A stretch of 38,977 nucleotides of DNA from a virus, in IMG/VR virus record IMGVR_UViG_3300045988_170240; one strand, given 5' to 3'. Shown one piece after another: positions 1 through 32,617 of the stretch (position 1 is the first letter of the stretch; each line of letters begins with the position of its first letter). The notes under the pieces are model-generated. The model ran no database searches. It worked only from the letters and a program-made list of their open reading frames with translations, and had not been told where the DNA came from. A program made the position numbers and the translations under genes.

Positions 1-119
1 CTTTTTTTTTATTTAAGTATTTCAACCCTTTATCGGGCGCTCAGTTAATTCAGGTAGTTACGGAGAATACAATAATTTCAGGTATTTAAAAATGCTTAGT
101 TAAATCAGGTGCTTTGGAC
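1..119. repeat. Left direct terminal repeat (119 bp), identical to 38859-38977
   Basis: Sequence 1-119 (c + T9 + atttaagtatttcaaccctttatcgggcgctcag...gctttggac) recurs exactly at the right end of the window. Confidence 0.85.
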
Positions 120-264
120 GTTTTTCATGAATACGATGAACACGTTTATCAAAGTTAAGTATTTCAACTGTTTATGAGGCGCCCAGTTAATTCAGGTAGT
201 TACGGAGAATACAATAATTTCAGGTACTTGACTTTGTTTAATTAAATCAAGTGCTTTGGACGTT
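13..264. repeat. Two tandem imperfect ~110-bp direct repeats (13-122 and 155-264, period 142 bp, roughly 85% identical); a third partial copy lies outside this interval at 301-360
   Basis: ttaagtatttcaacNNtttatNgggcgcNcagttaattcaggtagttacggagaatacaataatttcaggta...gtgctttggacgtt read twice; aataatttcaggtac recurs again at 340-354. Confidence 0.7.
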
Positions 265-710
265 ATTTCCGATAAAAGTGTATATAAAAATTAAAGACAA
301 TCATTTCAACCATTTAATTTTTTCCCCTTGAGGTTAATAATTTCAGGTACTTATCTCAGAGTGAAAATCGAAGTAAATTTCCAATAGGGTATAAGTACTT
401 GAAATATATGAGGATTCGCGGAATATCGATTTTAGCGGCACTCTCCCCAAAAACCTTTATATATATACTCCTTTAGAACTAATTTTTACTAGGTTATTAA
501 TTTATTTTTATTACTTTATCACTTTATTACTTTATAATAATAAAATAATATAATAAATATAAGGGTTTACGTGGTGCCCAAATGAAAGTGCGGAGGCCTA
601 AGCGATTTTTCGCGACACTTTAGTATTTTTGCCCTCCGTTCTGCCAATATTTTGCCGAGAGTTTTTCTGAAAGAGCAGATCCGCGAGTCCCCGAATCCTG
701 AGTATAAAAG

Positions 711-738
711 AAGGCCCGCATCGTGAAATGCGGGCCTT
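711..738 (-). terminator. Rho-independent terminator downstream of the leftward HTH gene
   Basis: Perfect 11-bp stem aaggcccgcat / atgcgggcctt with a 6-nt loop; on the - strand it is followed by CTTTTATAC; 21 nt past the stop of the 760-1056 gene. Confidence 0.55.
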
Positions 739-759: not shown

Positions 760-1056
760 TTAAGAAGCAGCTTCCCAAATGAACTTCTTGCCAAGCGGGT
801 CAGTGGCAATCATGATGCCCGCCTTCTTGAGATAGGACAAATTGGAACTAATGACCGCGGGCGACGTGTTGCAGGTCTCAGCAAGTTCCTTGATGCTCAT
901 ATGAGTGCCATTGGCGAGGGCTGCCTGAATCTTGTTCTTAATAGAATCAGGATTGTTGAACTTCTGCTGATACGTCTGTACCGCGAGAACCAAGTCTTCA
1001 TGAGAGAGGGCATTGAGGGCTTCGAGCGACAGATTGTTGAGTTCGTTGATGGTCAT
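760..1056 (-). CDS. Winged-helix/HTH DNA-binding regulator (98 aa) transcribed toward the left genome end
   Basis: ORF with AGGAG 7 nt upstream of the ATG; segment MSIKELAETCNTSPAVISSNLSYLKKAGI resembles an HTH recognition region. Confidence 0.6.
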   Translation of the reverse strand: MTINELNNLSLEALNALSHEDLVLAVQTYQQKFNNPDSIKNKIQAALANGTHMSIKELAETCNTSPAVISSNLSYLKKAGIMIATDPLGKKFIWEAAS

Positions 1057-1114
1057 GGTAGATCTCCTAATGGTTAGAATTTATTTAGCGTCATCACGCT
1101 CATTTGTTGAATTC

Positions 1115-1142
1115 AGTATACGCCTATTCTAGAGGGTTGTAA
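1115..1142 (-). promoter_or_regulatory. Sigma70-like promoter for the HTH gene (-35 TTACAA, 16-bp spacer, -10 TATACT)
   Basis: Read on the - strand: TTACAAccctctagaataggcgTATACT; overlaps the inverted repeat agggttgtaaaccct (candidate operator). Confidence 0.4.
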
Positions 1143-1178
1143 ACCCTTTTCTGAATAAAATTTAAAAATATTTTCTGT

Positions 1179-1207
1179 CCATTTTGCTTTCTCTATACGG
1201 GTATAAT
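1179..1207 (+). promoter_or_regulatory. Possible rightward promoter with a perfect TATAAT (1202-1207) and weak -35; divergent from the HTH promoter
   Basis: ccatttTGCTTTCTCTATACGGGTATAATtg; would transcribe the non-coding leader 1210-1900. Confidence 0.25.
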
Positions 1208-1327
1208 TGAGGACTTGGGTTGTCCTGCAATTCATTCTATCATGTATTGCAGACTTTGTACACGCCAAAACCTGGGCGCCTAAGGACCTGGGCAACCCTC
1301 ATGGTCAGTGACAGCTAATGATAGCGA

Positions 1328-1389
1328 GTGACTCCTGAATGCTCAATCAGGGGTAGGTGACTGCAGGTGACTCCTGAATGCTCAATCAG
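1328..1389. repeat. Two perfect 23-bp direct repeats gtgactcctgaatgctcaatcag (1328-1350, 1367-1389), a partial third (gtgactgcag 1357-1366), flanked by gtcagtgaca repeats (1304-1313, 1409-1418)
   Basis: Read directly; iteron-like arrangement with 39-bp period in a region lacking any credible ORF. Confidence 0.85.
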
Positions 1390-1815
1390 TGGGTGTCTGT
1401 CATCAGCTGTCAGTGACACCCGGTTGAACGCACGATCAGCCGGTCCGTCTTGCCCGCGGCGGCCGATCTGGTGGTACGGTGAACGGGAGTGAACCATATC
1501 ATCATAGCTGAACAAAGTGAAGCGCTATTATCTGTGGAACAGAGTGACACATTGTCCCAATGGTTGAACCAACGGTGAAACACCTCACGAGAAGCAAGGG
1601 CGGAGTCCCGAAGCGTATCTGCTGATTCGAGCGAATAACATGAGCGAGCTTCCACTATTAAGAGTTGAGGCGGAGCCTCAAGCTCGTATATGTTCAGTTA
1701 CAGCGTAGCAGCGCTAGCTGTATGAGCGATTAGGCTTGTAAGTGAGGGTGGAACCCGAAACGAAGAGCCGTAGCGAATACCATACTAGCGAAGCGGGCCT
1801 AATAGTTGCGAATGA

Positions 1816-1871
1816 ATCAAATTATTTTATTTGCGTTCACCGGAAGGTGAATGCGAGTAAAATAATTTGAT
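1816..1871 (+). other. Long near-perfect hairpin: 14-bp AT-rich stem (atcaaattatttta / taaaataatttgat) enclosing a 9-bp stem capped by a GGAA (GNRA) tetraloop
   Basis: Read directly; not followed by a U tract; lies 50 bp upstream of the early promoter. Confidence 0.6.
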
Positions 1872-1921
1872 TGAGCCACCACGCTGTACGCTTGTGAATA
1901 AAAGAATTATCCATAATATTG

Positions 1922-1950
1922 TTGACAGCTATCAATGATTCTGATAAGGT
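1922..1950 (+). promoter_or_regulatory. Strong host-type early promoter: -35 TTGACA, 17-bp spacer, TGaTAAGGT extended -10-like
   Basis: TTGACAgctatcaatgattctgaTAAGGT followed by RBS AAGGGAGG and the ATG at 1974. Confidence 0.5.
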
Positions 1951-1973
1951 GTATCTAACGAAAGGGAGGAAAT

Positions 1974-2180
1974 ATGAATAATGAAATATTGGATAGTTTG
2001 AGAAGAATTAGTTGTGGTATGGAAATTGTTATGAGAGATGTAATAGAAGAAAAGTATAATATGGATAGAGATTATATTGAGATAGAAGATTGGGAATTGG
2101 AATTAGAGGAAATTATTGGTAAGGGTGTAGTAGAAGGTTGGAAGGAAATAAATAGAGTTATAGAAAAGATGGAGAAGTAA
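1974..2180 (+). CDS. Small hyper-acidic early protein (68 aa, 19 D/E against 10 K/R), C-free coding sequence; candidate DNA-mimic / anti-restriction (Ocr-like) protein
   Basis: RBS AAGGGAGG 9 nt upstream; protein contains no A, H, P, Q or T because the coding strand has zero cytosines. Confidence 0.6.
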   Translation: MNNEILDSLRRISCGMEIVMRDVIEEKYNMDRDYIEIEDWELELEEIIGKGVVEGWKEINRVIEKMEK

Positions 2181-2181
2181 A

Positions 2182-2418
2182 ATGAATGTTAATGAATTGA
2201 TGTATGATTTGGAAGAATGTAAGTTGGAAGTTGAGAGTGTATTGTGGGAGATAGTTTGTGATAATAGAGGTGTAGAGAGTGTGGAAGATTTGGATGATAG
2301 ATTGTTATTGGTAGAGTGTATGGATGATTTTTATGGAGGTGATAATTGGGAGTTGTTTAAGTGGTGGATGGAGTTAGAGGAAGTGTTTATGTGGTTGTAT
2401 GATTTAAGTAATGAGTAG
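2182..2418 (+). CDS. Second small hyper-acidic early protein (78 aa, 23 D/E against 4 K/R, 5 Trp), C-free coding sequence; candidate DNA mimic / anti-defence protein
   Basis: Start ATG lies 1 nt after the TAA of the upstream gene, with a GGAG RBS; same restricted 15-letter amino-acid alphabet. Confidence 0.6.
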   Translation: MNVNELMYDLEECKLEVESVLWEIVCDNRGVESVEDLDDRLLLVECMDDFYGGDNWELFKWWMELEEVFMWLYDLSNE

Positions 2419-2423
2419 GAATG

Positions 2424-2464
2424 TGATAGAGGAACTTATAATGGTTCCTCTATCATTTTCTTTC
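2424..2464 (+). terminator. Intrinsic terminator of the early transcript: 12-bp perfect stem, loop containing TATAAT, then TTTTCTTTC
   Basis: tgatagaggaac-ttataatg-gttcctctatca-ttttctttc, immediately after the stop at 2418. Confidence 0.6.
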
Positions 2465-2606
2465 AATCGGCTGGCAACGCCAGATCCGACGAGTAATACT
2501 ATTATTCTTAATGGGGTATTAGGGAACAACGTGACCGTCCCATTAAGAATAATAGTGTTATGAGGAGGATAGATTGAAAGAAAATGATAGAGGAACCATT
2601 ATAATG
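2424..2606. repeat. Nested inverted-repeat element: 33-bp perfect IR arms (2436-2468 / 2572-2604) around a 103-bp core that has its own 18-bp perfect IR (2498-2515 / 2539-2556) and a small hairpin ctggcaacgccag (2471-2483)
   Basis: Arms verified base by base; the right arm is followed by a second tgatagaggaaccattataatg copy. Confidence 0.8.
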
Positions 2607-2720: not shown

Positions 2721-2995
2721 AGTTCTTAGGTCATCCCGCATTATATTTGTCTCTTTTTCCTATTTCTCTACAACATTTGTTGATAATTCCTTATACGTGC
2801 GCGTCATGCGAAGAATCCTCATAACACATGAGTTCTATGCACAGAACTCGAGTTCTATAGAAAAAGCATGAGGGGCCTTGGTATTTTATCATTTCCACAT
2901 TTTTCTCTATAGAACTCACCCCTCATGCCAATTTCACCTCTATAGAACTACTGAGTTCTAAAGCTCCGAGTTCCGTAACTCAGGGCTTTAGAACT
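2721..2995. promoter_or_regulatory. Cluster of at least 8 copies of the AGTTCT/AGAACT motif, including the perfect palindrome half-site GAGTTCTATAG, upstream of the late operon
   Basis: AGTTCT at 2721, 2831, 2851, 2954; AGAACT at 2843, 2911, 2944, 2990; also IR catgagggg / cccctcatg (2867-2875 / 2919-2927). Confidence 0.6.
2767..2783. promoter_or_regulatory. 17-bp motif CTCTACAACATTTGTTG, repeated identically at 32627-32643; contains the inverted repeat caaca-tt-tgttg
   Basis: Exact 17-mer found twice in the genome, both in intergenic leaders. Confidence 0.5.
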
Positions 2996-3554: not shown

Positions 3555-4871
3555 ATGGCCATAGCCCCAAAAGTCATAACCATACCACGCAATTTCACAC
3601 CGCGCGATTACCAAATTCCTCTGTACAATTGCCTGGCAGAAGGATATAAGCGTGGGTTGGCTGTGTGGCATCGACGGGCTGGCAAAGATAAAGTGTTTGT
3701 TAACATCCTGGCCAGAGAGTCGATCAAACGCGTTGGAACCTATTTTTATATTCTTCCGTATTATAAACAGGCGCGCGCGATCATCTGGGAAGGGATGGAC
3801 AAAACAGGGTTTCGTCTGATAGAGCATATCCCTAAAGAGTTGTGGGTTCGCAAGGACAATCAGCAGATGACCTTAGAACTCGCCAATGGCTCATTTATTA
3901 GATTCCTTGGGTCAGACAATATCGATTCCATTGTGGGTACGAACCCCGTGGGCGTCATATTTTCAGAGTTTTCGTTGCATAAGCCTGAGGCTTGGCACTA
4001 CCTAAGGCCAATCCTGCTAGAAAACGATGGGTGGGCCTTGTTTAATGGGACGCCTCGGGGTCATAACCATCAGTGGGAAATGGACCTGTACGCACGTACC
4101 TCCGACGACTGGTTTTACTCCAAAGCGACCATAGATGACACCCATGTGATGACAGAGGAGCAGGTGCAAGAGGAAATTGATGCAGGTCTTCCTCCGGCCC
4201 TAGCAAAGCAAGAATTTTATTGCTCATATGAGGCTGCATTGGTTGGTGCATATTACGGTGAGCGCATGGAGGCCATCTCGTCACACATACTCCCTACCAT
4301 TTCATGGGAGCCCAATCTCTTGGTCAATACTGCATGGGACCTGGGCATTGATGACGAGTTAGTCATATGGCTGTATCAGAAGGTGCATAATGAAATCAGA
4401 ATCCTTGATTGTATCCATGATAATGGACATGCTCTGGATTACTATGTGCGTCTGCTCAATCAACGTCCATATGCCTATGGATACCATATCCTCCCTCATG
4501 ACGTTGAAGTCAGAGAGTTATCTTCTGGTCGCAGTCGCAAGCAGACACTGATGGACCTGGGACTCCAAGACATACGTGTCAATAAGCGCATACCTGTGGA
4601 AGATGGGATCAATATGGCCCGTAATATACTCCCCAGGTGTTGGTTTAGTGAAGATAAATGCTCAAAAGGCATTGAAGCCTTGAAGGGCTATCGTGCACAA
4701 TATGACTCGAAAACGAAGACATATGGGGCGCCAGTCCATGATTGGATGTCACATTATGCGGATGCGTTTAGAATGATGGCGCAGCACGAGCGTTACCAAG
4801 AGTTTGCAACACGCACTCTGCCACAACGCACACGAGATTATGACTATAATCCGTTGACATATGGAGAATAA
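3555..4871 (+). CDS. terL: Terminase large subunit (438 aa)
   Basis: Position upstream of the portal gene; P-loop-like VWHRRAGKDKV near the N-terminus; C-terminal RNaseH-like nuclease Asp motif AWDLGIDDELV. Confidence 0.7.
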   Translation: MAIAPKVITIPRNFTPRDYQIPLYNCLAEGYKRGLAVWHRRAGKDKVFVNILARESIKRVGTYFYILPYYKQARAIIWEGMDKTGFRLIEHIPKELWVRKDNQQMTLELANGSFIRFLGSDNIDSIVGTNPVGVIFSEFSLHKPEAWHYLRPILLENDGWALFNGTPRGHNHQWEMDLYARTSDDWFYSKATIDDTHVMTEEQVQEEIDAGLPPALAKQEFYCSYEAALVGAYYGERMEAISSHILPTISWEPNLLVNTAWDLGIDDELVIWLYQKVHNEIRILDCIHDNGHALDYYVRLLNQRPYAYGYHILPHDVEVRELSSGRSRKQTLMDLGLQDIRVNKRIPVEDGINMARNILPRCWFSEDKCSKGIEALKGYRAQYDSKTKTYGAPVHDWMSHYADAFRMMAQHERYQEFATRTLPQRTRDYDYNPLTYGE

Positions 4872-14531: not shown

Positions 14532-17500
14532 ATGGCATATACTCAGCAGACTAACGAAGCCCTGGCAGCAGGCTTTTCTCTGTCAGAGATTCGTGAACAG
14601 GCTAAGCGTGAAGCTGATGAAGCAATTCAGGCAGGCTTTACTGCTGATGAAGTCTATGAGGGCATCAAAACTGAGTATGGGTTTTCCTTAAAAGATGATC
14701 CTGCAGACCTTGAAGCAGCACAGGATTTTATAGAGGTTGCCACAGTAGATCCTGTATTGGCAGAGAAAGCCGATATGGAAGTTGCACAAGGTAATCCTCG
14801 TCCTGTAGTTGACTGGAAAGAAGCCGTACTTGCTGGGTATCAAAATTCTATCACTGGGTTAGCAGTTCGTGGTGAATTGCCAAATTTGGTCGTACCAGAG
14901 ACTGGAAGTGTTGCACAAAAAGTATTTGCGATGGCTGGTCAAGCTATTGGGGATATACCTGCTCTTGTTGTGGGTGGTGCTGCTGGTGCTACGACTGGCC
15001 CTGCCGCGCCCATAACATCTCCTGCAGCTGCGATGGGTCTTACTGAAGGCCTGCGTACATATATGACTGACATGTATCGTGAGGGTAAGGCAACAACTTG
15101 GACTGAAGTTGTTGACCGTACTCTCAATACTTTGTCATCTGCAGGTAAAGGCGCAGTCATTGGTGCAGCTACTGGTGGAGCAGGTAAATATACTGGTAAG
15201 TTCTTTTCTGAAGCCACTCCGGCTATGAAAACTACGGCGCAGTTATTTTCTGAAATCACCACCATGACTACTGCAGGTTCACTGATGGAAGGCAAAATGC
15301 CTACTGCTGAAGACTTCATGATTGCCAGTATGGGTTTAGGCGGAATGAAGGCTGCAGGTTTTTATTCGAATCGTCTTATGGGCGTATTTGAAGTTACCGG
15401 TAAAACGCCTGAAGCAGTACGCATCAATTCTATCATTGAACCTACTATCAGAGAAGACGTTGCATCTATTAATCTTGAGGTGCCCCGTGCCTATCGATCC
15501 TCGTATCGTCGAGTCTTCACTGAGGGAGTCAATCTTAATCCGGAATCTGCGCCTGCGGGAGTGTGGTATTCTACTAGCAAAAACGCGGCAGAAGCCGCAG
15601 CGAAGAAAACTGAAGGGGCGTCTGTACAAGAATATCAAGTCCACCGCAGCGTTCCAATGTTCCATTATACCGATGCGCGCGGCGCAAGGCTGTTCAAAGA
15701 ATTCCTGAAGACGCCCGAAGGCAAAGCTTCTATGGAGAAAATGGATCCTGAGTTCTTCCAGGAATATCCTAACTTTATTGAGAAGTATAAGAGCGTATCT
15801 CAGGAACGACTGATTCCCACATCTCGTAAGATGTTTGAGAATCCTACACCTGAATTTATTGAATGGTTATCATCTGACAAGTTGTCTCCTGAAGCTATTG
15901 AAACACTGGCTGGAGCAACTAAGGGTAAAAAGGTTCGCGAACTTACGCGTAACATCGAGGGCATTCAAATGGGCTCTCGTATGTTTATTTTCGACCAGAA
16001 AAAAGTATCGGCGGCAAAGGCTGCGCCTAAGGGTGAAATGCCCATAGACGCCGCTCAAGCTGAGTTGCGGCAGAATATTTCCTTGGGTGAAGAGAAAGGT
16101 ACTCGTACATGGTCGGAAATCAAGGATTCGACATACCAGTCATTGGTAGATAAATTTGCTCCTCTCAATACTGGAGCATCTCCGGGTAAAATGACTGAAT
16201 CTCGTGCTATGGCTTCGGCTCTTATGGGGTCGCCTAAAATGGCTATGCACTGGATTGAACATTCGCCATTTAAGTTTGGCAGTCGTGAGAACTTTGGCAT
16301 ACCTCTTGATAAGATAATTAAGGAAGCAGGTGATCCTCGTGGGTTATCTGAATACTTGATTGCTAAGCGTACCATGGAACTGTCTGAGCAAGGTGTAGAT
16401 ACGCGTATTAATCCGGAAGTAGCCTATTCTGTAGGTAAAAATCCGGAGAATGTTGCAAAGTATGACACTGCAGCACAGAAGATCTACGACTACAATAATA
16501 ACCTGCTCGATTACATGAAAGATGCAGGTCTTATCAGTGAACGCCAACTGCGTGACATCAAAGCGAAGAACAAGAAGTACGTTCCCCTTAACGAGGTTGT
16601 TACTGAATTTGAACCGTCATTTGGGGAAGACTTTGCTGCACCCAAGGCCGTCATTATTGACCCACTTGAGAGTGTAGTTCGGAATACCTTTAGTGTCATT
16701 CGAATGGCTGAGTCTAATGCGGTCAAGAAGCAGATTGCCAAGGACTTCGGTCAAGCTGTAGAAGTCAGTCAGCGTGAAAGTCCGCTGTCTCATGATGTAT
16801 CGCGTAAAACGCAGATTACTGTCAGAGAAAATGGTCGTAAGCGCGTATATGCTGTGCCTGAAGAAATTGCTAAGACTGCCAGACAACTGGATATGGATTC
16901 GGCACTCATTTATAATGGTATAATGAAAGGATTGACTGAGGTTGCATCTTGGACTCGTGCAGGTTCTATTACTACGCCTGAATTTGTTGTACGTAACTTG
17001 TTCCGTGACCAGTTTACTGCGGCCATTAGTAATCCAGGTTATATTTATGGATTGAGCGCACTGAAGGGCTTTACTTCGGTTATCAGTAAGCGAACTGGCG
17101 GACGACTCTTTCCCAAGATGGAACAGTATTATTGGGACTGGGCAAAGAACGGCGGTGGCAATGCATCTCTTGTAGCTCTTGACAGAAAGTTCACTCAGGA
17201 AATGATTACTGAGATGGCTAAAGTTCCTGCACGTAATTTGCTCAAGGACCCTGTCAAGAATTATAAAGAAGTCATCAGTATGATTAATCCGTTGAACCTT
17301 CGTAAGGCTCCGGGTATCGTTAAGAGAGCGCTGCAGAGTGCTACTGAGATGACTGATGAAGCCACACGCATTGGTGGGTTTATTGAAGATGTGAATCGTG
17401 GTATATCGCCTTTCGAAGCCGCAGTTAAGTCTAGAGATATTACTCAGGACTCTATGAGAATTGGAGCGGTTACTAAAGGATTCAATGCCATTACGGCATT

Positions 17501-18620
17501 CTTTAATGCCCAGGTTCAAGGTCTCGATAAAACCTATCGTATGGCTAAGGGTGACCCTATCAGGTTTATGTCAGGTGTGGGGGCAGGAATAGTTCTGCCA
17601 TCTTTGCTTCTGTCATTAGTTAATAATGACATTATGTACAATAGCCCTGACTCTGATACTGCTAAGGCATTGAGGAACGTACCGGACTGGCAGCGTGCTA
17701 CATGTTGGATTGTTCCTACTCCTTGGGCGGTATTGCGTATTCCTAAGCCCCAGGAATTGGCAGTAATTGCAGCAGCCCCAGTCGAAATGTTTGTTGACTG
17801 GGTATATGAAAACAAAGATAGAAGTCTCCTGCAGAAAATGTGGGATGACGGATTTTTTGACGCCGTTAGTGATCAGATTATACCTAGTGTTATGCCTTCA
17901 GCTATTGCACCTGTATATGAATCTGCGGCTAACTATAGTTTCTTTACCGGAAACCCCATTATTCCATCATTCATGGAAGATATGTTTCCGCAGACGCAAT
18001 ATAAGGCCAACACAACTGAGATTGCTAAGAGCCTGTCGCGTGTCCTCAATTATCTGGACCCTGTAGCAGAAACAGCAATTGGTAGACGTGCATCTTCTCC
18101 ACTTATTATGGAACATCTTGTGAGAGGATGGACGGGTCAGGTAGGACAATATGTCCTTTCTGCCTTGGATACTGCGGCGCAAGAAGCGGGAATTATAGAC
18201 AAAGTAGAACGCGCGGCGCCGACTCTTGCTGACTTACCAGTAGTTAAGTCGTTTGTTTTCAGATATCCTAGCGTGAGTGCTAAAGCAATTGAAGACTTTC
18301 AGACAAAGGCAGGTCGGCTTGAGAATCGTCTGAAGTCAGTAAATATGCTTATGAAAGAGGGTACTGGCGTTGCAGCAGCTATGGCTGAAGAGCTTATGAA
18401 TAGCGGACCTATGGGCCAGTTTACTGGTGTACGGTCTTCTCTAAATAACATGAGCAAAGCTGTCAGAATGATTCAGTTCAATGAAGATATGGATGCGGAT
18501 GAAAAGCGACAGCTAGTCGATCAGATTTATAGTGAAATGATCGATGTCGCAGAACAAGGTCTTCTTGTCATCGACGAGGTTAATAAGGCCTATAAGGAGG
18601 TGAAGAATGCTGATAAGTAA
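14532..18620 (+). CDS. Large internal virion / ejectosome protein (1362 aa)
   Basis: ORF of gp16-like size immediately before the tail-fibre genes. Confidence 0.5.
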   Translation: MAYTQQTNEALAAGFSLSEIREQAKREADEAIQAGFTADEVYEGIKTEYGFSLKDDPADLEAAQDFIEVATVDPVLAEKADMEVAQGNPRPVVDWKEAVLAGYQNSITGLAVRGELPNLVVPETGSVAQKVFAMAGQAIGDIPALVVGGAAGATTGPAAPITSPAAAMGLTEGLRTYMTDMYREGKATTWTEVVDRTLNTLSSAGKGAVIGAATGGAGKYTGKFFSEATPAMKTTAQLFSEITTMTTAGSLMEGKMPTAEDFMIASMGLGGMKAAGFYSNRLMGVFEVTGKTPEAVRINSIIEPTIREDVASINLEVPRAYRSSYRRVFTEGVNLNPESAPAGVWYSTSKNAAEAAAKKTEGASVQEYQVHRSVPMFHYTDARGARLFKEFLKTPEGKASMEKMDPEFFQEYPNFIEKYKSVSQERLIPTSRKMFENPTPEFIEWLSSDKLSPEAIETLAGATKGKKVRELTRNIEGIQMGSRMFIFDQKKVSAAKAAPKGEMPIDAAQAELRQNISLGEEKGTRTWSEIKDSTYQSLVDKFAPLNTGASPGKMTESRAMASALMGSPKMAMHWIEHSPFKFGSRENFGIPLDKIIKEAGDPRGLSEYLIAKRTMELSEQGVDTRINPEVAYSVGKNPENVAKYDTAAQKIYDYNNNLLDYMKDAGLISERQLRDIKAKNKKYVPLNEVVTEFEPSFGEDFAAPKAVIIDPLESVVRNTFSVIRMAESNAVKKQIAKDFGQAVEVSQRESPLSHDVSRKTQITVRENGRKRVYAVPEEIAKTARQLDMDSALIYNGIMKGLTEVASWTRAGSITTPEFVVRNLFRDQFTAAISNPGYIYGLSALKGFTSVISKRTGGRLFPKMEQYYWDWAKNGGGNASLVALDRKFTQEMITEMAKVPARNLLKDPVKNYKEVISMINPLNLRKAPGIVKRALQSATEMTDEATRIGGFIEDVNRGISPFEAAVKSRDITQDSMRIGAVTKGFNAITAFFNAQVQGLDKTYRMAKGDPIRFMSGVGAGIVLPSLLLSLVNNDIMYNSPDSDTAKALRNVPDWQRATCWIVPTPWAVLRIPKPQELAVIAAAPVEMFVDWVYENKDRSLLQKMWDDGFFDAVSDQIIPSVMPSAIAPVYESAANYSFFTGNPIIPSFMEDMFPQTQYKANTTEIAKSLSRVLNYLDPVAETAIGRRASSPLIMEHLVRGWTGQVGQYVLSALDTAAQEAGIIDKVERAAPTLADLPVVKSFVFRYPSVSAKAIEDFQTKAGRLENRLKSVNMLMKEGTGVAAAMAEELMNSGPMGQFTGVRSSLNNMSKAVRMIQFNEDMDADEKRQLVDQIYSEMIDVAEQGLLVIDEVNKAYKEVKNADK

Positions 18621-24111: not shown

Positions 24112-25333
24112 GAATTATTATATGGTCGACTAGCACCGGTTTGGTTTGTCCAGGCCGGCGCAGTCGACCATTTAATTGTTGATAGGTTTCGAGGGACCAA
24201 GTAAGTCCAAGCCAGCATATGCGGTGACCGCCATACTGTAGATTAAGGCCGTGGGATAATGAATTGGGGTGACAGAAAAGTACAGGGAGATTTCCTTTGT
24301 TCCATTCATGAACGTACTGCTTAGACAATTCGGTAGGAGTGCCCCCAATAATAGCTGGCGCCTCTGGAAGTCTCTTTCTAATTTCGATAAGTTCACTTCT
24401 AAACTGAATGGGAACGAGCATGGGATCGCCAGCTGCTTCCTCAATTCGGTCAAAGAGGGTATCCACTTTTGCGGTATTATCGAATATAATGTTACGCTGC
24501 TCGTCATAGATAGAACCTTGTAAGAGCTGGCGTAACCGTAATGAGAGTATTCCAGCAGTAGCTGCCGTAAGAGTACTTTCATTTGCAAGAGTCGTAATAA
24601 ATTCTGTCTGAAACTCTTTATATCGTTGCATGGACGCTGGAGGGAGATATGCGGGAATAGATGAAAAGATGTATGGTTCAAGTTTAAGATAGTCATTTGC
24701 ATCCAACCTGAAAGTTATATCTTTAATTTTATCAATCACAATATCCATTGCACCGTCGTTCTCAATCCATATGAATCTATCAATTTGAATATGATAGGTC
24801 ATCATGAATTGAGTTTTCTTTTTTCCAAGGCGCTCTCCATCATCCAAAAGAAAATACTGCGACCACAAATCTCGTACGCCATTTGGTGCGGGAGTTCCTG
24901 ATAGGGCATATGCGCGTTTAAAAAGTCGTTTAAACTCTTTCATGAGTTTGAAGCGTTTAGAACTAGAATCCTTGAGCTTTGTCATTTCATCCCAGATAAT
25001 CATGCCATCACGCATATAATTGGTCATTTCAATGGTCCAAGCCTTGCTCAACCAGTTGATACCATCATAATTTATGATATACACATCAAGACCTGGTTGC
25101 AAGTATCTTGTCTTTCCATGAAGTACTTGATACTTAAGATCAGGTCGCCATTTAGCTATTTCTTCAGGCCACGTAATAGCGGCTACAGTAAGAGGTGCAA
25201 ATATGATTGTGGGACGATCAATCATATGAAGTAGAATTGCGGTCTTTCCCATGCTCATATCGACAGCAAAATATCCTACATCATGGCTATTGCCCCATTC
25301 TACAGCCTTTTTCTGATAATCACGAAGTTCCAT
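24002..25333 (-). CDS. SNF2-family DNA-dependent ATPase/helicase (about 443 aa from ATG 25333; ORF-track start 25399 is a TTG)
   Basis: Motifs DYQ, Walker A DMSMGKT, DEMT (motif II), SGTPAPN (motif III), QLNGRLRRPGQ (motif VI). Confidence 0.75.
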   Translation of the reverse strand: MELRDYQKKAVEWGNSHDVGYFAVDMSMGKTAILLHMIDRPTIIFAPLTVAAITWPEEIAKWRPDLKYQVLHGKTRYLQPGLDVYIINYDGINWLSKAWTIEMTNYMRDGMIIWDEMTKLKDSSSKRFKLMKEFKRLFKRAYALSGTPAPNGVRDLWSQYFLLDDGERLGKKKTQFMMTYHIQIDRFIWIENDGAMDIVIDKIKDITFRLDANDYLKLEPYIFSSIPAYLPPASMQRYKEFQTEFITTLANESTLTAATAGILSLRLRQLLQGSIYDEQRNIIFDNTAKVDTLFDRIEEAAGDPMLVPIQFRSELIEIRKRLPEAPAIIGGTPTELSKQYVHEWNKGNLPVLFCHPNSLSHGLNLQYGGHRICWLGLTWSLETYQQLNGRLRRPGQTKPVLVDHIIIPKTVDDRVLSTLTRKDTTQQQLLNALKEFANESGYL

Positions 25334-25363
25334 AGTGCTTAACTCATTGGTATATATGACAAA

Positions 25364-25450
25364 CTCTATAGAACTCTTCTCAATTTTCACGCGATACAAT
25401 ATTCACGCTTTTCATTTTAAAGAGTTCTATAGAGTTCTATAATTAGTTCA
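25364..25450. promoter_or_regulatory. Second cluster of the AGTTCTATAG-family motif (ctctatagaactc 25364-25376; tandem agagttctat x2 then aattagttca at 25421-25450) between the 118-aa gene and the SNF2 helicase
   Basis: Read directly; same motif family as 2721-2995 and 471-483. Confidence 0.55.
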
Positions 25451-30549: not shown

Positions 30550-30942
30550 TTAGCGAGTTTTGCTATAGCCAAGTTTGATGCGCTCATAATTGATGTGCAT
30601 CTTTCTCTTGAACACATCCTCAACTTGCTCCCACGACAGCGAGTTGTTTTCCATAAATGCGCCCAAGAAGAAAAGTATATCAACCACCTCTTCCGCCATA
30701 TTGTCCATATTGTAGGACTTATAGCCCAACGGACGCCAAGGCTTCCAAGGGGTAGATTCTTGCAGTTCGGTCACTTCATTATGAAGCGCCGCAATCAGTT
30801 GATTGTTCATATCGCGCCGGTCAATAGCAGACCGTACAGTAGAGTTCTGATCTTCCTTGGCAATCGGATAACCAAGGATCTCATGATACTCTTTAATCAT
30901 CGCGAACATATTTGCCGCAGTGAGAGACTTTTCAGTTTCCAT
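30550..30942 (-). CDS. MazG-like nucleotide pyrophosphohydrolase (about 130 aa from the internal ATG)
   Basis: All-alpha NTP-PPase-like acidic motifs HNEVTELQE and EEVVDILFFLGAF. Confidence 0.45.
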   Translation of the reverse strand: METEKSLTAANMFAMIKEYHEILGYPIAKEDQNSTVRSAIDRRDMNNQLIAALHNEVTELQESTPWKPWRPLGYKSYNMDNMAEEVVDILFFLGAFMENNSLSWEQVEDVFKRKMHINYERIKLGYSKTR

Positions 30943-31369
30943 AGCTAAGCCCCATATGTATCCATGTATCTTCAGGCCGTACACGTGACCACAAACCATG
31001 ACCGGTTTTGTTATGATTGGTCTCATTCACGAACAGCACTTTAGTACATCCAGCATTTATAAGTGCCGCAGTACATTGGATACATGGTTCGAGTGTGCAA
31101 TATGCCACAAAAGGTACATTGCTTGACCGCTGAATGAGGGCGTTTATTTCGGCGTGCACAGCATAGCAAGGCAGGCCGTCATTCTTAACACAACAATTCT
31201 CATCGCAGCAGTTGAACACGCCTTTGGGATTGCCGTTGTAGCCTGTAGACAGAATATTGCCTGTCTTCTCGTCTACCAGCACGCATCCGACCTGCTTGTC
31301 AATACAAGTAGACCGCTGCGCGACTGCCGTAGCTACTTGGATATAATACTGGTGACGGGAGATCCGCAT
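30932..31369 (-). CDS. dCMP deaminase (145 aa from ATG 31369)
   Basis: Zinc-binding motifs HAEINAL and PCIQCTAALINAG (CDA fold H(A/C)E ... PCxxC). Confidence 0.8.
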   Translation of the reverse strand: MRISRHQYYIQVATAVAQRSTCIDKQVGCVLVDEKTGNILSTGYNGNPKGVFNCCDENCCVKNDGLPCYAVHAEINALIQRSSNVPFVAYCTLEPCIQCTAALINAGCTKVLFVNETNHNKTGHGLWSRVRPEDTWIHMGLSYGN

Positions 31370-32001
31370 GACATCTTTCCCTGGTTGCAGCGGCCATTGT
31401 GCATAAAGCAGTATGGCCCGATCATTGAGAACAGTTCGGGAAACCAGTCGCAGCACATAGAGTGCATAGCCGCGGCCAACATCTGCATTTCCTGAACGTT
31501 GCGGTGACAAAGCCGGAGCTGCAAGAAGTTAATGAGTGAGCGTGCGTTCATGGTCACAACCACATTGACGCCGGCGCTCATGGGAAGCAGCATACGAGCT
31601 TCTTCTTTTGCTTCACCATCCTGCATAAGAAGAGCATACGCGTTTACAGCTTCAGCATGCGCCTTTTGTATGCGTTCATCATTGACCATATAAGGATGCA
31701 CAAAGCAGTCATAGGACGTATAATCCTGATAATGCTGACTGCTGGACGTGTAAGATGCAATACGATGCCGCACATGCTGATCAAAGCAAGCCCGAGATAC
31801 GTCGGTAATGCGGAAGCAAATGACCGCGTGTTCCACAGGATTGAGATGATCAGCCGAGATCAAGAACGATAATAGAGCACTCGGATTTCCCTTGATCTCG
31901 GGGTTCTTCTTCATCGTTTGCTGGGCAGCCAGGGCAACCACATTTGCAGGATACGGGGTCGACCATATTACTTGGGCTTTCGGGGCATACGGCTTCAGCA
32001 T
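31333..32001 (-). CDS. thyX: FAD-dependent thymidylate synthase ThyX (222 aa from ATG 32001, RBS AAGGAG)
   Basis: ThyX signature RHRIASYTSSS (RHR-x7-S). Confidence 0.8.
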   Translation of the reverse strand: MLKPYAPKAQVIWSTPYPANVVALAAQQTMKKNPEIKGNPSALLSFLISADHLNPVEHAVICFRITDVSRACFDQHVRHRIASYTSSSQHYQDYTSYDCFVHPYMVNDERIQKAHAEAVNAYALLMQDGEAKEEARMLLPMSAGVNVVVTMNARSLINFLQLRLCHRNVQEMQMLAAAMHSMCCDWFPELFSMIGPYCFMHNGRCNQGKMSCGSPVTSIISK

Positions 32002-32617
32002 TTTCGTATTCTCCTTCGATTGTGTGATAAACAGGATGATAGACCCGCAGGCCATGAAAACGTGGTGATTTCACGTAATTATCGCCGTAATTGCATGCTT
32101 TACACATGCGCCCTTTAGGACGAGAAGACCATTCGCAGGTATCACAGCCCTTAATTACAAACTGTTCTACCGCATGGTCATAAGGATATCCACAATCTTT
32201 GACTACAAAGTTGTTGTCACCCTCATCATTGTTCTTGTAGTATGTACATGCAACGCACTTGTTATTGGTAACAAGATTGTTGCTCAGTGCACTATATACA
32301 CAATTTTTGCACCCCATTTCGACAGACTTTGCACTATCATTTTTGGGATTACACGCGAACCAATGCAGAAACATAGCATTAGCTGCAATATGAGCAAGGT
32401 GAGACTGACCCGATTCAGGATCATTCATCTCACCGCGCTCGAAGGCATTCAGATGACGATGCAGAGCATCAAGATAGCGCCGATGTGCGTTATCTGTAGT
32501 TTTCCAGTCCTCAGGCCCGTATTTTTCCGCGCCCATGGTAAGAACCTTTGCTAGCTCAAGAGCAAACTTAGGTTCAATAAGCGAGAAAAGGGGCTTTCCA
32601 GAATCAAATTTCGACAT
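31850..32617 (-). CDS. dATP/dGTP pyrophosphohydrolase-like N-terminal domain fused to a Cys-rich (putative Zn-binding) C-terminal domain (255 aa)
   Basis: N-terminal KPLFSLIEPKFALELAKVLTMGAEKYGPEDWK...HLAHIAANAMFLHWF; C-terminal multiple CxxC pairs; the 3' 150 nt overlap thyX in another frame. Confidence 0.4.
   Translation of the reverse strand: MSKFDSGKPLFSLIEPKFALELAKVLTMGAEKYGPEDWKTTDNAHRRYLDALHRHLNAFERGEMNDPESGQSHLAHIAANAMFLHWFACNPKNDSAKSVEMGCKNCVYSALSNNLVTNNKCVACTYYKNNDEGDNNFVVKDCGYPYDHAVEQFVIKGCDTCEWSSRPKGRMCKACNYGDNYVKSPRFHGLRVYHPVYHTIEGEYENAEAVCPESPSNMVDPVSCKCGCPGCPANDEEEPRDQGKSECSIIVLDLG

What the first reader, a model, noticed from the sequence alone, without database searches (positions are those of the whole stretch)
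1057..1973. 900-bp gene-free leader with 23-bp iterons, divergent promoters and a 56-nt GNRA-capped hairpin: candidate origin or non-coding RNA locus
In an otherwise tightly packed genome, 1057-1973 carries no credible ORF.

It contains:
- Divergent sigma70-like promoters (- strand 1115-1142; + strand with a perfect TATAAT at 1202-1207).
- Two perfect 23-bp direct repeats 39 bp apart (1328-1350, 1367-1389) plus a partial third, flanked by gtcagtgaca repeats.
- A GC-rich 400-bp stretch.
- A long hairpin (1816-1871): 14-bp AT-rich perfect stem, 9-bp inner stem and a GGAA tetraloop.

This resembles an iteron-containing replication origin, a regulatory-protein binding array, and/or a structured ncRNA transcribed from 1210 to about 1875.
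Basis: partly seen in the sequence, partly recalled or inferred. Interest (0 to 1): 0.55.

Follow-up and report, generated by a model that had tools for sequence, protein, structure and literature searches.

The report
Candidate large structured phage non-coding RNA
The 900-bp gap in this gut-phage genome is probably not an iteron origin: it holds promoters for the neighbouring regulator gene, a variable hairpin-repeat array and a conserved, heavily base-paired ~450-nt element that is most likely a new large phage non-coding RNA, and it sits just upstream of an operon whose mRNA has essentially no cytosine.

Summary
The region splits into four parts.

- **1057-1265:** two tandem leftward sigma70 promoters for the wHTH gene. 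Both are conserved in three phage clades.
- **1265-1438:** a fast-evolving array of small CCUGA...UCAGG hairpin units, which includes the "23-bp iterons". Copy number varies from 1 to about 5.
- **1439-1885:** a conserved element with a plus-strand-specific multi-branched fold. An invariant long-range helix closes it and a 27-bp GGAA-capped hairpin ends it.
- **1886-1973:** a conserved sigma70 promoter (P2) and ribosome-binding site for the downstream operon.

The alignment fold has 183 pairs, and 36 show compensatory changes, against 4-11 in slid controls. The plus strand folds 24-39 kcal/mol better than the minus strand in four lineages. There is no match in Rfam, GenBank phages, plasmids or E. 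coli genomes.

The "perfect TATAAT" is not conserved, and I found no conserved promoter for the RNA. That is the main weakness.

An origin is less likely here. An AT-rich repeat region at 1-560, next to the primase operon, fits one better.

Best reading: a new large structured phage RNA of unknown role (confidence about 0.5).

The adjacent 475-nt cytosine-free operon is the most surprising thing seen.

The parts
1115..1143 (-). Proximal promoter of the wHTH gene (760-1056, minus strand): TTTACA-17-TATACT
   Evidence: The hexamers and the 17-nt spacing are conserved in clades B and C.
1234..1262 (-). Distal promoter of the wHTH gene: TGTACA-17-TAGAAT with TG upstream. The blocks 'TTCATTCTA' and 'TGTAAAC' on the plus strand are its -10 and -35 elements.
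   Evidence: The homologous sites are TTTACA-17-TACAAT in L023, TTTACA-17-TATGAT in L020 and TTTACA-17-TAGAAT in L019 (read). The hexamers are kept while the spacer varies.
1202..1207 (+). TATAAT hexamer: not a conserved promoter element
   Evidence: It has no -35 element. It is replaced by TGCGGT in L027 and L028, and by TGTGGT, TACGGT or TGCGGC elsewhere.
1304..1417 (+). Variable hairpin-repeat array. It holds two 35-nt units (1319-1353 and 1358-1392, with identical 23-nt cores at 1328-1350 and 1367-1389), enclosed by the inverted repeat 1304-1324 / 1397-1417.
   Evidence: L016 has one unit; L023 has about 3 and L020 about 5 related units ending in ATCAGGTG. Identity to clades B and C is only about 48-50%. 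The consensus fold is weak and shows no strand preference across all 16 sequences (-27.6 against -27.5), with a modest plus-strand preference in the six representatives.
1439..1805 (+). Conserved multi-branched core of the structured element
   Evidence: RNAalifold and pair counts. Identity to clade B is 80%, the same as TerL. The consensus energy favours the plus strand: -93.5 against -82.0 for the core alone, and -132 against -110 with the hairpin.
1442..1453 (+). 5' strand of the long-range closing helix H12 (GGUCCGUCUUGC). It pairs with 1788-1799.
   Evidence: There are 11 pairs, and 100% of cells are paired in 16 sequences. The two variable pairs change as G-C to G-U and U-G to U-A.
1788..1799 (+). 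3' strand of H12 (GCGAAGCGGGCC). It contains GCGAAGC.
1478..1523 (+). Two copies of one structural module, stem - tandem G.A - AC/GU - loop: GGU-GA-AC-GGGA-GU-GA-ACC (1478-1495) and GCU-GA-AC-AAA-GU-GA-AGC (1507-1523)
   Evidence: Read directly from the sequence. In L023 the first copy is GAU...AUC, a G-C to A-U covariation (pair 347-362). These modules explain much of the 13:1 strand bias of the motif RKTGAM.
1598..1681 (+). Two GGC-GGA-GYC triloop hairpins (1598-1608 and 1665-1681)
   Evidence: GAGG/CCUC in the window is GGGG/CCCC in clades B and C (pair 547-558).
1815..1872 (+). 27-bp hairpin with a GGAA loop and three G.U pairs, terminator-like, followed by the conserved tail GAGCCACC (1873-1880)
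   Evidence: There are six compensatory pair changes in L020 (helix 33). With the tail it is 97.5% identical in clade B, the best-conserved segment.
1922..1950 (+). Promoter P2 of the downstream operon: TTGACA-17-TAAGGT
   Evidence: The homologues are TTGACA-17-TATAGT in L020 and TTGACT-17-TAGAGT in L023.
1960..2434 (+). Adjacent cytosine-free transcription unit (ORFs 1974-2180 and 2182-2418), ended by the terminator hairpin 2423-2456

Best explanation
Window 1439-1885, possibly with the variable array from about 1265, encodes a large plus-strand structured RNA that is not in Rfam.

It has a multi-branched core closed by an invariant 11-pair long-range helix. The core is built from recurring small modules: tandem-G.A hairpins, GGA-loop hairpins and AGC-loop hairpins. 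These modules are gained, lost and swapped between clades. A 27-bp GGAA-capped hairpin ends the element and probably acts as its terminator.

The stretch to the left (1057-1265) is not part of the RNA. It is the double promoter of the divergent wHTH regulator gene.

**Inferred, not shown:** the RNA is made early, next to the hypervariable early operon. It acts in trans as a multivalent scaffold or decoy for a protein. Alternatively it self-assembles, as the large phage RNAs GOLLD and ROOL do.
For: - Coding: no ORF is conserved across the three clades.
- Known families: no Rfam, tRNA or tmRNA match in the window or in relatives.
- Structure: on a 16-sequence alignment, 183 consensus pairs are 97.2% paired. 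36 pairs carry compensatory changes, against 6.5 +/- 2 in shuffles and 4-11 when partners are slid.
- Strand: single-sequence MFE favours the plus strand by 24-39 kcal/mol in four lineages. The consensus energy is -132 against -110 for core plus hairpin. About 19 G.U pairs are seen, and many one-sided changes run G-C to G-U to A-U.
- RNA versus DNA parameters: z-score is -5.1 with RNA parameters and -3.3 with DNA parameters.
- Conservation: the core matches TerL at 80% identity to clade B, and the 3' hairpin reaches 97.5%. The promoter and array DNA are about 50-58% identical.
- RNA-type modules: tandem sheared G.A beside a GGGA loop, with G-C to A-U covariation.
- Resemblance: a conserved 3' part with a variable 5' part is also described for GOLLD (PMC12286853).
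Against: - No conserved sigma70-type promoter faces the core on the plus strand in any clade, although P2 and the wHTH promoters are canonical. Transcription is inferred only.
- Only three clades exist in everything searched. The covariation events are therefore few, and the structure was derived from the same alignment it was tested on.
- Many hairpins have 3-nt C-GNA-G loops, and an exact GCGAAGC is present. From my own knowledge these are typical of very stable DNA mini-hairpins.
- The core lies in a gap with no recognisable promoter, between divergent transcription units. An origin could sit there.
- Against other 700-nt windows of this genome, corrected for GC, the region is not among the five strongest folders.
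Confidence: 0.5

Rival explanations
1. A single-stranded-DNA or DNA-level element: a replication origin or primase-helicase loading site. The plus-strand hairpins, extruded or exposed during replication, would be recognised by the phage's PriCT_2/VapE-type primase-helicase.
For: - The core sits in a stretch with no recognisable promoter, between divergent transcription units.
- It lies near the cumulative GC-skew minimum of the genome.
- It has many C-GNA-G triloops and an exact GCGAAGC.
- RKTGAM occurs 13 times on the plus strand and once on the minus strand, against 1.6 expected.
- The plus strand also folds better with DNA parameters (z -3.3 against -2.9).
- GGTGAAC resembles the reverse complement of the P4 ori iteron TGTTCACC (own knowledge, untested).
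Against: - The region is GC-rich and lacks an AT-rich unwinding element. A separate AT-rich gap (GC 0.32-0.35) conserved in all clades lies next to the primase operon, and it carries 142-bp repeats in the main clade.
- The skew is confounded by gene orientation.
- The motif copies sit in helices and internal loops, and they covary (GGUGAAC to GAUGAAC with a matching partner change), rather than being conserved as sequence.
- Helices spanning 45-350 nt and about 10% G.U pairs fit RNA better than DNA.
- The RNA z-score is stronger than the DNA one (against 101).
Confidence: 0.18
2. A cis-acting structured leader or insulator. Transcription entering from the left is folded and stopped, or attenuated, at the 27-bp hairpin. 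This would set how much read-through reaches P2 and the early operon, or protect that transcript.
For: - The order core - hairpin - P2 - operon is the same in all three clades.
- The hairpin is flagged as terminator-like.
- The hairpin and its tail are the best-conserved piece.
Against: - P2 is a strong, conserved, independent promoter between the element and the operon.
- About 450 nt of branched structure is far more than a terminator or attenuator needs.
- No upstream plus-strand promoter was found.
Confidence: 0.12
3. For 1265-1438 only: a DNA array of binding sites for the wHTH protein or another regulator, lying between the leftward wHTH promoters and whatever starts to the right. This does not exclude an RNA gene further right.
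For: - The units are direct repeats, each with an internal CTGA...TCAG inverted repeat.
- They lie next to two autoregulation-type tandem promoters.
- The consensus RNA fold here is weak. It shows no strand preference across all 16 sequences, and only a modest plus-strand preference in the six representatives.
Against: - Spacing between the half-sites varies from 6 to 10 nt, and unit length from about 21 to 39 nt. That is poor for a rigid dimeric site.
- Unit sequences differ between clades although the wHTH recognition region is nearly invariant.
- A different clustered motif, CTCTATAGAACT, looks more like the phage's operator or promoter signal, and it is absent here.
Confidence: 0.2
4. A hidden protein-coding gene with an unusual start.
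For: A 42-aa GTG ORF (1742-1870) is shared with clade B.
Against: - That ORF spans the hairpin.
- It is absent in clade C.
- All of its differences from clade B change the amino acid.
- No other ORF is conserved.
- Relatives carry indels of 1, 9, 10 and 39-42 nt.
Confidence: 0.02

Closest known systems
GOLLD and ROOL (large 'ornate' RNAs of phages and prophages; Rfam families)
   Same: Phage-encoded and non-coding, several hundred nt long, multi-branched, with function unknown. As in GOLLD, the 3' part is conserved and the 5' part is variable (PMC12286853).
   Different: No covariance-model match even at E up to 10. No neighbouring tRNA genes. Known so far from only three related phage clades. 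Expression and oligomerisation are untested.
Iteron-type replication origins (plasmid Rep/iteron origins, lambda ori, P4 ori/crr)
   Same: Direct repeats in a gene-free stretch near replication genes. A GGTGAAC-like word recurs in one orientation.
   Different: Only 1-2 copies of the 23-mer. The units are not conserved between clades. No AT-rich unwinding element and no Rep-type initiator nearby. The motif copies covary as base pairs.
Type III antitoxin RNAs (ToxI) and phage 'pseudo-ToxI' mimics
   Same: Tandem repeat units of about 39 nt, variable in copy number, in a phage early region, followed by a hairpin.
   Different: No Rfam match. No ToxN-like gene. The units are a small part of a much larger branched structure. 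Own knowledge of the family; not otherwise tested.
N4 early promoters (DNA hairpins GAAGC-GGA-GCTTC on the template strand)
   Same: The window has GAGGC-GGA-GCCTC and GGGC-GGA-GTCC hairpins. I confirmed the N4 hairpin in the N4 sequence at 555-575.
   Different: The phage has no virion RNA polymerase. Its 1362-aa virion protein is a DarB-like polyvalent protein with an LPD38 domain. The resemblance is therefore probably coincidental.
G-less cassette used in in-vitro transcription; ACA-less mRNAs resistant to MazF (own knowledge). These are analogues for the neighbouring operon, not for the RNA.
   Same: A transcription unit that lacks one nucleotide entirely, from the start region to the terminator.
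   Different: It is natural, conserved across clades, under strong purifying selection, and it encodes real proteins.

Membership tests
Iteron-containing replication origin | Three or more similar direct repeats of about 17-22 bp, conserved among relatives | tested here: not met
   There are two 23-nt cores in the window and one in L016. The units differ in sequence, length and number in clades B and C.
Iteron-containing replication origin | An adjacent AT-rich DNA-unwinding element | tested here: not met
   GC is 0.49-0.56 across 1201-1800. The AT-rich stretch (GC 0.29-0.33) is at 1-560, on the other side of the wHTH gene.
Iteron-containing replication origin | A cognate Rep-type initiator encoded next to the iterons | tested here: not met
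   The neighbour is a 98-aa single wHTH with only weak regulator-type matches (DeoR, GntR, Rrf2, Ren-like).
Iteron-containing replication origin | A strand-composition switch at the site | tested here: inconclusive
   The cumulative GC skew is lowest near the window ends and highest at about 24 kb. This coincides with gene orientation.
GOLLD / ROOL / other Rfam large RNAs | Match to the family covariance model | tested here: not met
   There were 0 hits at gathering score and none from these families at E up to 10, in the window and in L020 and L023.
Structured non-coding RNA (generic) | Conserved secondary structure supported by compensatory changes | tested here: met
   36 of 183 pairs have compensatory changes, against 4-11 in slid controls. 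No shuffle out of 500 reached the observed value. Caveats: only three clades, and the structure came from the same alignment.
Structured non-coding RNA (generic) | Strand specificity of the fold | tested here: met
   The plus strand is better by 24-39 kcal/mol in four lineages, and in the consensus folds of the core.
Structured non-coding RNA (generic) | Own promoter and terminator, and a detectable transcript | tested here: inconclusive
   A terminator-like hairpin is present in all clades. No conserved plus-strand promoter was found. No expression data are available with these tools.
Sigma70 promoter at 1202-1207 | -10 and -35 hexamers at 16-18 nt spacing, conserved in relatives | tested here: not met
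   There is no -35 element. TATAAT is replaced by TGCGGT, TGTGGT, TACGGT or TGCGGC.
Intrinsic terminator (hairpin 1815-1872) | A stable stem followed by a U-tract | tested here: inconclusive
   The stem is -34.7 kcal/mol. The tail UUUGAUUG is U-poor and partly lies inside the stem. The scan flags it in all three clades.
Type III antitoxin RNA / pseudo-ToxI | Tandem 34-45-nt repeats homologous to a ToxI-type family, with or mimicking a ToxN partner | tested here: not met
   Two 39-nt-spaced units exist. There is no Rfam match and no ToxN-like protein among the ORFs scanned.
CsrB/RsmZ-type protein sponge | Many GGA motifs in hairpin loops, and a family model match | tested here: inconclusive
   There are 4-5 GGA-loop hairpins in the window, 3-4 in clade B and 2 in clade C. 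No Rfam match was found. The loop context (UGGAA, CGGAG) differs from ANGGA (own knowledge).

The most novel reading that the evidence does not exclude
The structured RNA and the cytosine-free operon form one early counter-defence module.

The operon's mRNAs would be built without C so that they survive, or can still be made, under a host attack that acts through cytidines. Candidate attacks are:
- MazF/PemK/MqsR-type mRNA interferases, whose known sites all contain C;
- ddhCTP chain terminators from prokaryotic viperins, or CTP shortage;
- Rho loading;
- cytosine deaminases acting on the non-template strand.

The large modular RNA would be a decoy or antitoxin mimic that soaks up the same or a related RNA-binding effector.

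Nothing in my data excludes this. Nothing tests it directly either.
Probability: 0.15. Interest if true: 0.9.

Novelty: new member of a known kind. Interest (0 to 1): 0.6.

Why it matters
Large (over 400 nt), intricately folded bacterial and phage RNAs are rare. Those studied have turned out to be ribozymes, assemblies or other sophisticated machines.

This candidate is carried by a phage lineage that recurs in hundreds of public metagenome contigs. One of the fetched contigs is labelled human gut metagenome.

It sits in the early, hypervariable region where counter-defence functions usually lie. If transcription is confirmed, it adds a new family to the short list of ornate phage RNAs.

Its neighbour, a natural operon whose mRNA has no cytosine and which is kept that way by strong selection, offers a directly testable lead. 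It may point to a cytidine-dependent host defence or a transcription constraint that I could not find described in the literature I searched.

Tried and rejected
- **Known RNAs.** Rfam at gathering and permissive thresholds, on the window and on clades B and C, gave nothing relevant. ARAGORN found nothing.
- **DNA similarity.** blastn of the region against GenBank phages, plasmids and E. coli genomes gave no match.
- **Pattern scans.** IMG/VR returned only the same five contigs. JGI metagenomes returned the same clade plus chance hits in P-loop coding sequence of high-GC genomes.
- **Protein-guided searches.** TerL and the wHTH alignment brought no new clades.
- **N4-type hairpin promoters.** I considered them because of the GC-GGA-GC hairpins, and confirmed the N4 hairpin itself. 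I rejected the idea because the phage has no virion RNA polymerase.
- **11-nt tetraloop receptor (CCUAAG).** It is present only in the window-type allele and is deleted in others.
- **tRNA-like 3' end (GCCACC).** No acceptor partner exists and ARAGORN was negative.
- **Sigma54 -24/-12 reading of GG...TTGC.** The spacing is wrong.
- **ORF3 structure.** It is a confident 3-helix bundle with no PDB fold or sequence relative, so it gives no functional clue.
- **Literature.** Searches for cytosine-free phage genes found nothing relevant.
- **Helices H1-H3 of the alignment fold (1181-1252).** I now consider them doubtful, because that stretch is the distal wHTH promoter.
Full report
**Context.** The window is a roughly 39-kb tailed-phage genome.
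- Plus strand: terminase (3555-4871), portal, capsid and tail genes.
- Minus strand: DNA polymerase, helicase, ligase, exonuclease, nucleotide-metabolism genes and a PriCT_2/VapE primase-helicase.
- Its closest cultured relatives share only 35-44% TerL identity and infect Proteobacteria.
- The lineage is common in public assemblies. Variants of the small ORF1 protein occur on hundreds of ~40-kb contigs, and one fetched contig is labelled human gut metagenome.
- No host or prophage was identified.

**Observation.**
- No ORF of 40 aa or more is shared by the three clades.
- The minus-strand promoter TTTACA-17-TATACT lies at 1143-1115.
- TATAAT lies at 1202-1207.
- The two 23-mers are identical. 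They sit inside 35-nt units 39 nt apart and are enclosed by a 21-nt inverted repeat.
- GC is 0.49-0.56, against about 0.3-0.4 in the flanks.
- The hairpin at 1815-1872 has 27 pairs and a GGAA loop, at -34.7 kcal/mol.

**Relatives.** I found three clades.
- Clade A is the window plus many contigs that are 93-99% identical. It has two alternative alleles of the leftmost 260 nt (L019 and L030).
- Clade B is L023-L025, with 86% wHTH identity.
- Clade C is L020-L022, with 66% wHTH identity.
- All three keep a 940-980-nt gene-free gap between the wHTH gene and a small-ORF operon.
- Nothing more distant turned up in IMG/VR, JGI metagenomes, GTDB genomes, GenBank phages, plasmids or E. coli genomes.

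**Anatomy.** The gap is composite.

1. *1057-1265: promoter DNA for the leftward wHTH gene.* Besides the promoter at 1143-1115 there is a second one at 1262-1234 (TGTACA-17-TAGAAT). Its hexamers and 17-nt spacing are kept in L019, L023 and L020 while the spacer varies. The plus-strand TATAAT has no -35 element. It reads TGCGGT in L027 and L028, which are 97-99% identical elsewhere, and differs again in other alleles. I take it to be a lineage-specific coincidence.

2. *1265-1438: the "iteron" array.*
   - Units share a CTGA...TCAG inverted repeat with a 6-10-nt variable centre, followed by GUGWC.
   - Copy number is 1 in L016, 2 in the window, about 3 in clade B and about 5 in clade C.
   - Identity between clades is about 50%.
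   - The consensus fold is weak. It shows no strand preference across all 16 sequences, and only a modest plus-strand preference in six representatives.

3. *1439-1885: the conserved part.*
   - RNAalifold on 16 sequences gives 183 pairs for the whole 1180-1885 alignment. 97.2% of cells are paired.
   - 36 pairs carry compensatory changes, against 6.5 +/- 2 in shuffles and 4-11 when partners are slid by 1-3 columns.
   - An invariant 11-pair helix (1442-1453 with 1788-1799) closes a multi-branched core. Its only two variable positions change G-C to G-U and U-G to U-A.
   - The core holds two copies of a module with tandem G.A pairs: GGU-GA-AC-GGGA-GU-GA-ACC, which is GAU...AUC in clade B.
   - It also holds GGC-GGA-GYC hairpins (GAGG/CCUC against GGGG/CCCC) and UASC-AGC-GSUA hairpins. 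The last type occurs once in the window, four times in clade B and three times in clade C, in both G-C and C-G versions.
   - These modules account for much of the strand-biased word RKTGAM: 13 copies on the plus strand, 1 on the minus strand, 1.6 expected.
   - The terminal hairpin keeps pairing through six double changes in clade C.

4. *1886-1973: promoter P2 and a strong ribosome-binding site.* P2 is TTGACA-17-TAAGGT. It is TATAGT or TAGAGT with the same spacing in the other clades.

**Strand and molecule.**
- The plus strand folds 24-39 kcal/mol better than the minus strand in four lineages.
- It also wins in the consensus folds of the core: -132 against -110 with all 16 sequences, and -117 against -89 with six representatives.
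- The z-score of 1439-1885 is -5.1 with RNA parameters, and -3.3 (plus) or -2.9 (minus) with DNA parameters.
- About a tenth of the pairs are G.U, and many helices show one-sided changes running G-C to G-U to A-U.
- Conservation matches that of coding genes: the core is 80% identical to clade B, TerL 80% and the hairpin plus tail 97.5%.
- These points favour a plus-strand RNA.

**Weaknesses.**
- I found no conserved plus-strand promoter upstream of the core in any clade.
- Only three clades exist, so the covariation events are few.
- The structure was derived from the alignment it was tested on.
- Many loops are 3-nt C-GNA-G loops, and GCGAAGC is present. From my own knowledge these are hallmarks of stable DNA mini-hairpins.
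- The core sits between divergent transcription units.
- An ssDNA-level role, such as an origin or a primase loading site, is therefore a real rival.
- Against that rival: the stretch has no AT-rich element, whereas an AT-rich gap (GC 0.32-0.35) lies next to the primase operon in all clades and carries 142-bp repeats in clade A. GC skew cannot decide, because it follows gene orientation.
- N4-like hairpin promoters were a tempting parallel. The phage has no virion RNA polymerase: its 1362-aa virion protein is a DarB-like polyvalent protein.

**Comparison with known systems.**
- The nearest kind is the large ornate phage RNAs GOLLD and ROOL. They are phage-borne, several hundred nt long and of unknown function, and GOLLD also has a conserved 3' part and a variable 5' part (PMC12286853).
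- Membership is excluded by the covariance models, and no tRNA genes are nearby.
- The defining features of an iteron origin were tested and not met.

**The neighbour.**
- From 1960 to 2434 the plus strand has no C at all. This stretch runs from the expected P2 start region to the first half of the terminator hairpin. The first C (2435) lies 17 nt after the last stop codon.
- One C, at 1959, may fall at +2 or +3 of the transcript.
- Nineteen distinct versions of this cassette occur in the three clades. They are 364-747 nt long, hold 2-3 small acidic ORFs, and differ in content between otherwise near-identical phages. They carry 0-5 C.
- Six versions carry 47-69 C, about 11%, against 22% for the genome.
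- Among the C-free alleles, 240 derived substitutions include only 2 to C. T to C occurs 2 times against 77 for T to A or G. In TerL, all 6 changes from T are to C.
- Recoding such as CGC to AGA shows selection rather than simple deamination.
- I found no description of this in the literature.
- Hypotheses are listed in the notebook. None was tested.

**Verdict.** The origin and iteron interpretation, and the proposed plus-strand promoter, are not supported. The structured-RNA interpretation is supported for 1439-1885, but transcription is unproven. This is a probable new family of large phage RNA in a notable genomic neighbourhood.

Noticed in passing
window 1960-2434 (ORFs 1974-2180 and 2182-2418); L001 6401-7143; L020 and L023: A transcription unit with no cytosine on the coding strand: 475 nt here and 743 nt in relatives. 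It is conserved in three clades. Selection against C is very strong, with 2 of 240 substitutions to C. The encoded proteins necessarily lack P, H, Q, T and A. A few near-identical phages carry a C-containing (11%) version of the cassette instead.
   Followed up: partly
window 1974-2418 versus L001, L009, L026-L030: Cassette content between the conserved promoter P2 and the terminator is hypervariable. There are 2-3 small acidic ORFs of 47-88 aa in different combinations, in phages that are 97-99% identical elsewhere. That pattern is typical of counter-defence hot spots. ORF3 is a confident 3-helix bundle (pLDDT 93.6) with no known relative.
   Followed up: partly
window 6-360 and 480-565: About 2.1 tandem copies of a 142-bp direct repeat (three partial copies of its sub-motifs), followed by 8-nt TTATTACT-type repeats, lie in a stretch of 28-33% GC between the wHTH gene and the primase operon. 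The AT-rich gap is kept in all clades. The 142-bp repeats occur only in the main clade. This is a better origin candidate than the region examined.
   Followed up: partly
window 2436-2604: A perfect 33-bp inverted repeat (2436-2468 with 2572-2604) encloses a second 22-bp inverted repeat (2494-2515 with 2539-2560). Its left arm overlaps the operon terminator. It is 87% identical in clade B. Several relatives' contigs end here, so it may be a genome end or packaging site, or simply an assembly breakpoint.
   Followed up: no
window 2851-2949 and 25326-25434: The 12-mer CTCTATAGAACT occurs in two clusters of three, in both orientations, at two intergenic sites: upstream of the small-terminase-like gene and beside the helicase gene. 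It is essentially absent elsewhere. It is likely an operator or phage-specific promoter signal.
   Followed up: partly
window 30550-32617 (minus strand): A nucleotide-metabolism cluster: a MazG/dUTPase-like protein, a dCMP/cytidine deaminase-family protein with weak MafB19 and AID/APOBEC-like matches, ThyX, and a protein with the N-terminal domain of dATP/dGTP diphosphohydrolases. This may hint at modified DNA. No PurZ-like gene was seen.
   Followed up: no
window 14532-18620 (plus strand): A 1362-aa protein encoded among the tail and structural genes, with an LPD38 domain. It is related to 'large polyvalent' and DarB-like antirestriction proteins.
   Followed up: partly
window 711-738: A 12-bp GC-rich hairpin is flagged as a terminator on the minus strand, directly after the wHTH gene. 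Being a palindrome it could act in both directions, but only the minus-strand site was scored.
   Followed up: no
window 1836-1863 (plus) and 1851-1824 (minus); L020 597-638: The arms of the long hairpin also read as weak mirror-image promoter-like sites: TTCACC-16-TAAAAT here, and TTGACC-17-TACAAT (10 of 12 matches) in clade C. This is probably a by-product of the AT-rich palindrome.
   Followed up: no
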